Assembly: GCF_009914755.1 (NCBI RefSeq)
Contig: NC_060947.1
Length of the DNA: 64,000 nt
Reading direction: 5' to 3' (one strand)
DNA from: the human T2T-CHM13v2.0 reference genome, Homo sapiens
The notes under the pieces are model-generated. The model had not been told where the DNA came from. It made no database searches and worked only from the letters and a program-made list of their open reading frames with translations. The position numbers and the translations under genes are program-made. Shown here in pieces: positions 23,907 to 25,250 of this stretch. The first letter of the stretch is position 1. The number at the start of each line of letters is the position of its first letter.

Positions 23907-24380
23907 TTTTCTCTTTTTGAGACAAGGTCTCGCTCTGTCACCCAGGCTGGAGTGCAGTGGCGTAATCACAGCTCACTGTAGCCTCGACTTCCAGTGCTCA
24001 AGCAATCCTCCCACCTCAGCATCCTGAGTAGCTGGGACTACAGGCGCACATCACCATGCCCAGTGATTTTTTAAATTTTTAGTAGTGAAGAGGTCTCGCT
24101 GTTTTGCCCAAGCTGGTCTTGAAGTGATCAAGTGATCACTGTCAAATGGGAATAGTAATAATTTCCAAGGTGTTTGCGAGGATCATCAGATACTAAGGAT
24201 TTTACTTGTTTTTATTTTCCTTATATGATGTACACATTGTTTACATTGAAAAAAAATTATTTCTCCAAACTAGAATCTAAGTTCCATGGGTATGGTGGGT
24301 TTGATAAAGTAACCAAGTGATCCTCCCACCTCGGCCTCCCAAAATGCTGAGATTGCAGGCATGAGCCACCCTGCCAGGCC
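23907..24380 (-). mobile_element. AluJ containing a ~190-bp foreign insert
   Basis: Alu body breaks after ggtcttgaa (24123) and resumes at caagtgatcctccc (24314); TSD gc(t/c)actcctctc. Confidence 0.9.
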
Positions 24381-25250
24381 GCCACTCCTCTCAACTGCCC
24401 TTTATTGTGCCTCTATGCTCGGCATGGTGCTCCTATGCTTTGCATGCTTAATCTCATTTAATTTCTGCTCCCCTTTGAGGTGGGTAGTATGATGCTTGTT
24501 ACTTTTTGAATGATGAACCTGAACCACAGAGAGGTTAAGTAACTTGCCCAAGATCATAATTCCTAAGCAGGAGGGCTGAGATTCAAAACAACACCTGGCT
24601 CAACACAAAGGCTTTCCTTTTAACCATGATGTTGTGGTGCTTCCACTTAACTTAGTAGACCTAGCCAGGGTCTCTCAGAGTTGATACATCTTTACGTTGA
24701 AGGTTTTGCTAATGACCCAAGGTATCTATATCTCCCATGGGCTCCATTAAGTCAAATCTCAGGGTGGCAGCACTTTGGGAGGCTGAGGCAGGCAGATCAC
24801 TTGGGGTCAGGAGTTTGAGACCAGCCTGGCCAACATGGTGAAACCCCATCTCTACTAAAAATACAAAAATTAGCCAGGTGTGGTGGTGGACACCTTTAGT
24901 CCCAGCTACTCGGGGGCTAGGGTGGGAGAATCACTTGAACCCCAGAGGTGGAGGCTGCAGTGAGCCAAGATCATGCCATTGTACTCCAGCCTGGGTGACA
25001 GAGTGAGACTCTGTCTCAAAAAAAAAAAAAAAAAAAACTCAGGGTGAGTGGGATCTACCTAGTAAAAGAGATGCCAAATACTTTATCAGACCCATCATAC
25101 CCATGGAACTTAAGATTCTAGTTTGGAGAAATAATTTTTTCAATGTAAAGAACGTGTACATCATATAAGGAAAATAAAAACCTGTAAAATCCTTAGTATC
25201 TGATGATCCTCACAAACACCTTGAGAAGTATTACTATTCCCATTTGACAG
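24139..25250. repeat. Inverted repeat, ~172-bp arms (24139-24311 and 25079-25250)
   Basis: Manual alignment: about 10 substitutions and 2 small indels. Confidence 0.95.
24768..25037 (+). mobile_element. AluS, 5'-truncated
   Basis: Starts at cagcactttggga; poly(A); TSD ctcagggtg. Confidence 0.92.

What the first reader, a model, noticed from the sequence alone, without database searches (positions are those of the whole stretch)
23907..25250. 172-bp inverted capture of downstream DNA inside an AluJ, with stuttered junction
24139-24311 is the reverse complement of 25079-25250 (about 93% identical by hand). It replaces ~10 bp of the Alu and is preceded by agtgatca-agtgatca, copies of the Alu sequence agtgatc found at the far junction (24316), which looks like repeated priming. 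The AluJ keeps its own TSD and looks more diverged from consensus than the copies are from each other, so the capture post-dates retrotransposition. Inference: polymerase-theta or template-switch repair.
Basis: partly seen in the sequence, partly recalled or inferred. Interest (0 to 1): 0.7.

Follow-up and report, generated by a model that had tools for sequence, protein, structure and literature searches.

The report
DNA-repair patch fossil inside an Alu
A 173-base reversed copy of nearby DNA interrupts an old Alu repeat in an HS6ST2 intron, likely a patch left by repair of an ancient germline DNA break; it is an ordinary example of a kind already catalogued by the hundreds in primate genomes.

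Summary
24139-24311 is a reversed copy of 25079-25250 (161/174 identical) inserted in an AluJ, with 10 Alu bases lost and fillers of 15 and 2 nt. The unit has 2 matches in the genome. 25079-25250 is the donor: an older repeat there runs on past the copied end. The arms differ by 10/171 substitutions, so the event is younger than the AluJ (p<0.001) and probably than the intervening AluS (p 0.015-0.035). This is a repair-mediated duplication as defined by Pace et al. 2009 (824 proximal cases, found as inserts that split repeats; mean 162 bp, donors about 1.2 kb away). This locus is not among their 29 chrX rows. Fold-back synthesis is the likeliest route (about 0.5), then a template switch by the left end (about 0.35). 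Polymerase theta fits the filler, not the long patch. New member of a known kind; low interest.

The parts
23893..23904 (+). AluJ target-site duplication, left copy
   Evidence: 11 of 12 nt match 24381-24392
23905..24123 (-). Host AluJ-type element, tail and 3' three quarters (left of the break)
   Evidence: Alignment with 24 window Alus; 22/223 non-CpG differences from the J-type majority over both halves; subfamily name from recalled diagnostic positions
24124..24138 (+). 15-nt left filler: two tandem copies of the sequence at the tip of the right break end (24315-24322), also resembling the donor flank; 24131-24140 is a perfect 10-nt palindrome
   Evidence: Exact-match table; the 20-mer 24124-24143 occurs once in the genome
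24139..24311 (-). Acceptor: 173-nt inverted copy of 25079-25250
   Evidence: 161/174 identity; 2 matches genome-wide
24312..24313 (+). 2-nt right filler; no flush microhomology with the donor end
   Evidence: 24306-24313 equals the reverse complement of 24498-24505 and 24313-24320 that of 24797-24804
24314..24380 (-). Host AluJ, 5' part (right of the break); 24313-24349 is 84% complementary to the AluS at 24768-24804
24381..24392 (+). AluJ target-site duplication, right copy
24495..24505 (+). Possible stepping-stone template for the right junction (weak, post hoc)
   Evidence: 8-nt match across the junction; random 8-mers match in 1.7% (inverted, within 765 nt) or 18% (either strand, within 2 kb) of 4,000 controls
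24767..25037 (+). 5'-truncated AluS-type element, inverted to the AluJ, with its own target-site duplication (24758-24766 / 25038-25046)
   Evidence: 14/210 non-CpG differences from the S-type majority
25079..25250 (+). Donor segment, native to this place; 68% A+T; its last ~50 nt belong to an older dispersed repeat (MIR-like, name recalled)
   Evidence: All 11 low-stringency hits elsewhere in 264 kb start inside it (25203-25233) and end beyond it (25259-25289)
25261..25274 (-). Donor outer flank with two words that match the left junction: 6 nt (25261-25266) and 7 nt (25268-25274, also equal to the break-site tip 24314-24320)
   Evidence: a 7-nt match in 226 of 21,802 control windows (1.0%), both words in 5 of 21,802

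Best explanation
This is a 173-nt inverted local copy that splits an AluJ and replaces 10 of its bases, likely the scar of a germline double-strand break that was patched by DNA synthesis primed at short matches (a repair-mediated duplication). Shown: acceptor, donor, deletion, fillers, direction of copying, and relative age. Inferred path: (1) a break in the AluJ near 24124-24313 was resected, leaving the bottom strand of the right end single-stranded for at least ~950 nt; (2) the left 3' end primed twice on the tip of that strand at 1-2-nt matches and aborted after 6 and 8 nt, which gives the stutter (polymerase-theta-like); (3) the right 3' end folded back on its own strand, perhaps first onto the inverted AluS and through 24498-24505, then copied 25079 to about 25250; (4) the two extended ends were joined at the short words shared by the filler and the donor flank. 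The event is likely 25-40 million years old and neutral. In HS6ST2 pre-mRNA the arms are predicted to form a 164-pair stem, with no sign of a function.
For: Class: every sequence criterion of Pace et al. 2009 that could be tested is met; size and distance sit near their means (162 bp, about 1.2 kb). Direction: the old repeat at the donor end continues past 25250 in 11 of 11 distant hits, while the acceptor sits inside a collinear Alu with intact target duplication. Age: arms 10/342 (8/334 without 2 CpG-type changes) per copy-site against 22/223 for the AluJ (p 0.0008, 0.0002) and 14/210 for the AluS (p 0.035, 0.015). Of the 29 chrX rows in Pace's Table S1, 17 have 4.4-7.8% divergence; 16 of these 17 are shared with macaque or all primates (my tally). 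Path: direct-repeat filler from the opposite end and inverted copies from a hairpin are the two shown geometries (PMC7165422, passages); fold-back insertions of up to ~150 bp, primed at one end and captured by end joining at the other, are shown in yeast (PMC11724301, passages). All templates here (24315-24322, 24498-24505, 24804, 25079-25274) can be read from one strand. A DNA fold of that strand pairs its tip at 24314 with the AluS (24803 in the best structure; 24937 at probability 0.56 in the ensemble).
Against: The same product arises if the left end alone did all the synthesis, so sequence cannot fix the direction. There is no flush microhomology at the 25079 end, where fold-back priming must start; the stepping stone at 24498-24505 has an 18% chance rate within 2 kb and was found post hoc. 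At most 1 nt of the AluS beyond the primer appears in the product, and the fold splits between two registers. The matching words in the donor flank are offset by 10 nt (or 1 nt for a 3-nt match), which needs a slip or a later deletion. The yeast fold-backs had a 41-nt loop, not 767 nt. Ages rest on majority sequences from 9 J-type and 15 S-type window copies, sorted by eye, which inflate Alu divergence; conversion between the arms would make them look younger. No orthologue could be read.
Confidence: 0.55

Rival explanations
1. One nascent strand did everything: the left 3' end stuttered on the right end, switched in inverted orientation to the top strand at 25261-25274 (lagging-strand template ahead of a stalled fork, or a sister chromatid), copied 173 nt back towards the break, and was joined to 24314 with a 2-nt filler (SDSA-like capture, FoSTeS or MMBIR).
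For: The longest matches (7 and 6 nt; 1.0% and 0.02% in controls) are at the 25250 end, which is the priming end in this model; the other end has no match and a filler, as in end joining. It is the model of Pace et al.. The 4 substitutions that could be polarised (of 10) are all derived in the copy, and substitutions cluster mildly (p 0.035 for gaps up to 3 nt; p 0.09 for adjacent), as error-prone synthesis would give.
Against: It needs templates on both strands in turn and invasion or exposure of the top strand about 1 kb ahead with only 6-7 nt of match. Three of the 4 polarised changes lie within 5 nt, so they are about 2 events, not significant, and do not separate this model from fold-back.
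Confidence: 0.33
2. Polymerase theta alone made filler and patch in one end-joining event.
For: The filler is typical: 6- and 8-nt direct repeats of the opposite end primed at 1-2-nt matches, several rounds; the donor is 68% A+T.
Against: [quoted passage not shown]
Confidence: 0.07
3. The patch was copied from RNA (HS6ST2 intron or an antisense transcript) by L1 reverse transcriptase.
For: The locus is intronic in a transcribed gene (hub annotation); RNA-templated patches are described (PMC5110952, part 1 of 4).
Against: No poly(A) tail, no target duplication, a target deletion instead; an RNA template has no reason to land 767 nt from its source; 0 of 39 proximal cases inspected by Pace et al. 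had a tail.
Confidence: 0.03
4. The unit is a dispersed repeat inserted twice, or an assembly artefact.
For: The genome search skips very common words, so it cannot prove rarity (note); the last ~50 nt are part of an old dispersed repeat.
Against: 2 matches for the whole unit and 2 for its first 117 nt at E up to 10; 0% coverage by distant hits in 264 kb at E 1e-6; the old repeat is cut by the copy boundary; the copies have diverged by 10 substitutions and 2 indels.
Confidence: 0.02

Closest known systems
Repair-mediated duplications (RDs), Pace, Sen, Batzer and Feschotte 2009, PMC2671141
   Same: Insert of at least 50 bp splitting a transposable element; one donor within 5 kb; no tail or target duplication; deletion 1-15 nt (here 10), filler 1-68 nt (here 15 and 2); length near the mean of 162 bp; divergence typical of cases shared with macaque or all primates.
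   Different: This locus is not in their list (no HS6ST2 row; none of the 29 chrX proximal rows fits). It is inverted; the main text gives no orientation counts (the word 'inverted' has 0 occurrences, one inverted case is described). Microhomology is offset from the junction, not flush.
Polymerase-theta templated insertions (TINS), PMC7165422
   Same: The 15-nt filler: short direct repeats of the opposite end in more than one round.
   Different: The 173-nt tract and the 767-nt distance lie far outside the 3-30-bp, break-proximal range.
Local fold-back inversions at breaks in yeast, PMC11724301
   Same: Inverted copy templated by the resected end's own strand and captured by the other end; up to ~150 bp.
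   Different: Shown in yeast with a 41-nt loop and a 10-nt inverted match; here the loop would be hundreds of bases and the priming match is uncertain.
MMBIR templated insertions (MMB-TI), PMC8421209
   Same: Inverted templated insertions with several switches, present as germline variants (about 100 per person in their two subjects).
   Different: Their search took templates within 100 bp; this donor is 767 nt away.
Class 2 templated sequence insertion polymorphisms, PMC5110952
   Same: A patch at a break with end-joining-type junctions and no tail.
   Different: Defined by distant donors and by polymorphism; this donor is local and the insert looks old.
'Doublets' of Thomas et al. 2004 (not held; seen only as described by Pace et al.)
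   Same: Short local two-copy duplications proposed to come from break repair.
   Different: Under 100 bp and near-identical; mostly on the same strand (recalled, not checked).

Membership tests
Repair-mediated duplication (Pace 2009) | Insert of at least 50 bp between two collinear halves of one element, consensus positions within 30 bp | tested here: met
   190-nt insert; halves 10 nt apart in the alignment with 24 window Alus
Repair-mediated duplication (Pace 2009) | Insert found at only one other place in the genome | tested here: met
   2 matches, 2 of 2 candidates scored; the search skips very common words
Repair-mediated duplication (Pace 2009) | Donor more than 50 bp and less than 5 kb away | tested here: met
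   767 nt
Repair-mediated duplication (Pace 2009) | No poly(A/T) tail; deletion, filler or microhomology at the breakpoints | tested here: met
   10-nt deletion, 15- and 2-nt fillers, no tail, no target duplication; 'Filler+Del' is 5 and 'MH+Del+Filler' 10 of their 39 inspected cases
Repair-mediated duplication (Pace 2009) | Empty orthologous site in an outgroup primate | not testable with these tools
   No relative of this genome is held
Polymerase-theta TINS | At least 5 bp repeated directly or inversely from flanking DNA, primed at a short match | tested here: met
   Filler only: 24122-24129 and 24129-24137 match 24315-24322 and 24314-24322
Polymerase-theta TINS | Short (3-30 bp), break-proximal tracts | tested here: not met
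   173 nt from 767 nt away
Polymerase-theta TINS | Dependence on POLQ | not testable with these tools
   Ancient germline event
MMB-TI (PMC8421209) | Inverted copy of a template within 100 bp | tested here: not met
   Inverted, but 767 nt away; the limit is operational
MMB-TI (PMC8421209) | Microhomology at both switches | tested here: inconclusive
   Offset 6-7-nt words at one end, none flush at the other
Class 2 TSIP | Donor from a distant region | tested here: not met
   Local donor
Class 2 TSIP | Polymorphic in humans | not testable with these tools
   One genome held; 5.8% arm divergence argues for fixation
Structured RNA family (Rfam) | Match at the gathering score | tested here: not met
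   0 of 7 matches reach it; all 7 lie on the Alus

The most novel reading that the evidence does not exclude
The neighbouring inverted Alu steered the repair: the resected AluJ end folded back onto the AluS 450-620 nt away, and this fold-back, not chance microhomology, sent synthesis down its own strand to make an inverted capture. If general, inverted Alu neighbours set the orientation of repair-mediated duplications in primates, which the existing lists can test at once. The scar also swaps the RNA stem: the 164-pair copy/donor stem excludes the older AluJ/AluS stem in the best fold.
Probability: 0.15. Interest if true: 0.45.

Novelty: new member of a known kind. Interest (0 to 1): 0.18.

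Why it matters
As it stands it matters little: one more fixed repair scar in an intron, of a class with 824 listed human cases (a stated minimum), and with 4 more non-tandem two-copy duplications in the surrounding 264 kb. It is a clean teaching example, because the host Alu gives the pre-break sequence and the junction records several priming rounds. It would matter more if inverted Alu neighbours proved to bias captures towards the inverted orientation, or if the predicted RNA stem were edited and affected HS6ST2 splicing; neither is shown.

Tried and rejected
Inversion with duplicated breakpoints: rejected, both AluJ halves and its target duplication are collinear. Copying in the other direction: rejected, the older repeat crosses the donor boundary in 11 of 11 hits. 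Dispersed family: rejected. RNA family: none at gathering score. Error-prone synthesis as the source of arm differences: suggestive only (4 of 10 substitutions polarised, all in the copy, about 2 events; the other 6 had no informative relatives). A unique parse of the filler: not reached; it can be read as Alu-derived, donor-flank-derived, AluS-derived (9-nt matches at 24795-24803 and 24930-24938) or partly palindromic. Inverted Alu pair as a special feature: weak, 19 of 68 Alu pieces in 264 kb have an inverted Alu within 1 kb; yeast work finds 1-kb-spaced inverted repeats anneal mainly between molecules (PMC6103520, abstract only). Background rate rests on this one 264-kb region of chrX; no autosomal sample. 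Prior description: none found in searches for HS6ST2+intron+Alu+duplication (1 unrelated paper), 'repair-mediated duplication'+primate (3 papers) or Pace's Table S1 (chrX places 1-90 of 103 seen; sheet 1 ends at place 60 and places 61-90 are in the '>5 kb' sheet). Searches gave nothing relevant. Subscription papers and variant or repeat databases were not searchable.

Full report
Observation. 24139-24311 is the reverse complement of 25079-25250 at 161 of 174 columns, with 10 substitutions in 171 aligned bases (5.8%, 95% interval 2.8-10.5%) and two small indels; 767 nt separate the arms. A search of the whole assembly returns these 2 places only, for the whole unit and for its first 117 nt at E up to 10; the tool warns that it skips very common words.

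Anatomy. Aligned with the 24 other Alu copies of at least 230 nt in the window, the host's halves (23905-24123, 24314-24380, minus strand) are collinear and lack 10 nt between them. I sorted the 24 by eye into 9 J-type and 15 S-type (subfamily names from recalled diagnostic positions); the host differs from the J majority at 22 of 223 non-CpG sites and from the S majority at 34. Its target duplication is intact. The insert is 15 nt of filler, the 173-nt copy and 2 nt of filler, with no tail and no duplication of its own. Between acceptor and donor lies a 5'-truncated AluS (24767-25037) in the opposite orientation.

Direction. All 11 low-stringency hits of the donor region elsewhere in 264 kb begin inside the donor (25203-25233) and end beyond it (25259-25289). 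An older repeat (MIR-like; name recalled) therefore crosses the donor boundary, and 25079-25250 is the original.

Age. Per copy-site the arms carry 10/342 changes (8/334 without two CpG-type changes) against 22/223 for the AluJ and 14/210 for the AluS (one-sided p 0.0008 and 0.0002; 0.035 and 0.015). The capture is younger than the AluJ and probably than the AluS, so the donor was already about 770 nt away. Caveats: window-made majorities mix subfamilies and inflate Alu divergence, and conversion between arms would lower theirs. In Pace's Table S1, 17 of the 29 chrX proximal rows have 4.4-7.8% divergence; 11 are in all primates, 5 in apes plus macaque and 1 in great apes only (my tally). An age of about 25-40 million years is likely; with the rate used in that paper (2.2e-9 per year) it would be about 14 million, so the date is soft.

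Junctions. The left filler holds two copies of the tip of the right end (24122-24129 = 24315-24322; 24129-24137 = 24314-24322), as repeated priming at 1-2-nt matches would give. Among 21,802 control windows of 30 nt (Alus and the locus masked), 226 had a 7-nt match to the junction, 124 a 7-nt match to the break tip, and 5 both a 7- and a separate 6-nt match. The test was chosen after seeing the match, and the words lie 10 nt outside the copied end. The right junction has no flush match to the donor; 24306-24313 equals the reverse complement of 24498-24505, which random 8-mers match in 1.7% (inverted, within 765 nt) or 18% (within 2 kb) of 4,000 trials, and 24313-24320 equals that of the AluS at 24797-24804.

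Mechanism. Read as synthesis from both ends of a resected break, every template lies on the bottom strand to the right of the break: the left end copies its tip (direct repeats) and the right end folds back on it (inverted copy). These are the two geometries shown for polymerase-theta insertions (PMC7165422; passages), and fold-back insertions of up to ~150 bp, extended by polymerase delta and captured by end joining, are shown in yeast (PMC11724301; passages). A DNA fold of 24314-25290 pairs the tip with the AluS up to its last base, in one of two registers. Against this: no flush priming match at 25079, at most 1 nt of AluS copied, and a loop far longer than in yeast. The rival, one nascent strand from the left switching to the top strand at 25261-25274 and returning, uses the longest matches for priming and is the model of Pace et al.; it yields the same sequence. 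I put the class at about 0.9, fold-back at about 0.5 and the left-end switch at about 0.35. Polymerase theta is a good fit for the filler and a poor fit for a 173-nt tract from 767 nt away. The 4 substitutions that could be polarised are all derived in the copy (the donor's base in 3/3, 2/4, 3/4 and 4/4 relatives, the copy's base in none), but 3 lie within 5 nt: a hint of error-prone synthesis, no more.

Consequence. On the transcribed (minus) strand the best fold (-604.6 kcal/mol) has 164 copy/donor pairs, a longest unbroken helix of 40, the AluJ 5' part paired with the AluS nested inside, and 0 pairs between the AluJ 3' part and the AluS; that crossing stem is worth -281.7 against -248.5 and -67.2 for the two nested ones. 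A substrate for ADAR editing is predicted (established knowledge of intronic inverted repeats), not tested. No exon lies between the arms (hub annotation) and no Rfam family reaches its gathering score (0 of 7 matches).

Background. In 264 kb centred on the window, pairs within 10 kb and not covered by distant hits number 3 at 85% identity or more and 6 at 75% or more: this one, the only inverted pair and the youngest; 4 direct pairs of 100-224 bp; and 1 near-tandem pair. The 3 direct pairs I checked of the 4 are two-copy in the genome. Their junctions were not shown to be repair scars, and this density is far above Pace's 0.62 per Mb of repeat DNA, which they call a minimum. No other region was sampled.

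Comparison. Pace et al. 2009 (PMC2671141; parts 1-5 of 8, methods section 21, passages, Table S1 by search) parsed repeat annotation for elements split by inserts of at least 50 bp and found 824 proximal duplications (mean 162 bp, peak distance about 1,200 bp; deletions 1-15 nt, fillers 1-68 nt, microhomology 2-9 nt). This locus meets each sequence criterion; the empty orthologous site could not be tested. It is not in their table: no HS6ST2 row, and no chrX proximal row between 130.4 and 134.4 Mb of hg18 (the gene's hg18 place, about 131.6-131.9 Mb, is recalled). Their filters for nested repeats may have dropped it (inference). Other papers seen: PMC5110952 (part 1 of 4), PMC8421209 (passages), PMC6103520 (abstract); Thomas et al. 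2004 was not held. Searches found no description of this locus; supplements of other papers were not examined.

Verdict. Real, well explained, a new member of a known kind. Interest 0.18. The boldest reading not excluded is that the inverted AluS primed the fold-back (probability 0.15, interest 0.45 if general).

Noticed in passing
window 44587-44795 and 47216-47411: A direct two-copy duplication of about 200 bp (76% identical; 2 matches in the genome) whose copies abut the two ends of a 2.4-kb decayed DNA transposon at about 44797-47210 (HTH_Tnp_Tc5 and DDE_1 matches in 3 of 3 frames scanned; Tigger1-like, name recalled). It looks like a 200-bp flanking duplication where 2 bp is usual (recalled), or a tandem duplication split by the element.
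   Followed up: partly
window 43983-44270 and 44296-44582: Two near full-length S-type Alus in inverted, head-to-head orientation only about 26 nt apart, an arrangement recalled as depleted in the human genome; the first has a long (TA)n-expanded tail at about 43830-43990.
   Followed up: no
L005:1624-1795 with L005:5763-5931 (chrX 131,153,624 and 131,157,763): Direct two-copy duplication, 172 bp, 87%, 3,967 nt apart; candidate older repair-mediated duplication.
   Followed up: partly
L007:8357-8578 with L008:629-851 (chrX 131,180,357 and 131,182,629): Direct two-copy duplication, 224 bp, 88%, 2,050 nt apart; candidate older repair-mediated duplication.
   Followed up: partly
L006:7457-7554 with L006:7881-7977: Direct local duplication, about 100 bp, 81%, 326 nt apart; copy number not checked.
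   Followed up: no
window 5275-5589: Another J-type Alu carries an 18-nt insert near its 5' end that no other of the 24 aligned copies has; possibly a small repair filler.
   Followed up: no
window 440-766 and 47542-47853: Two J-type Alus carry short inserts (about 12 and 5 nt) that resemble adjacent sequence.
   Followed up: no
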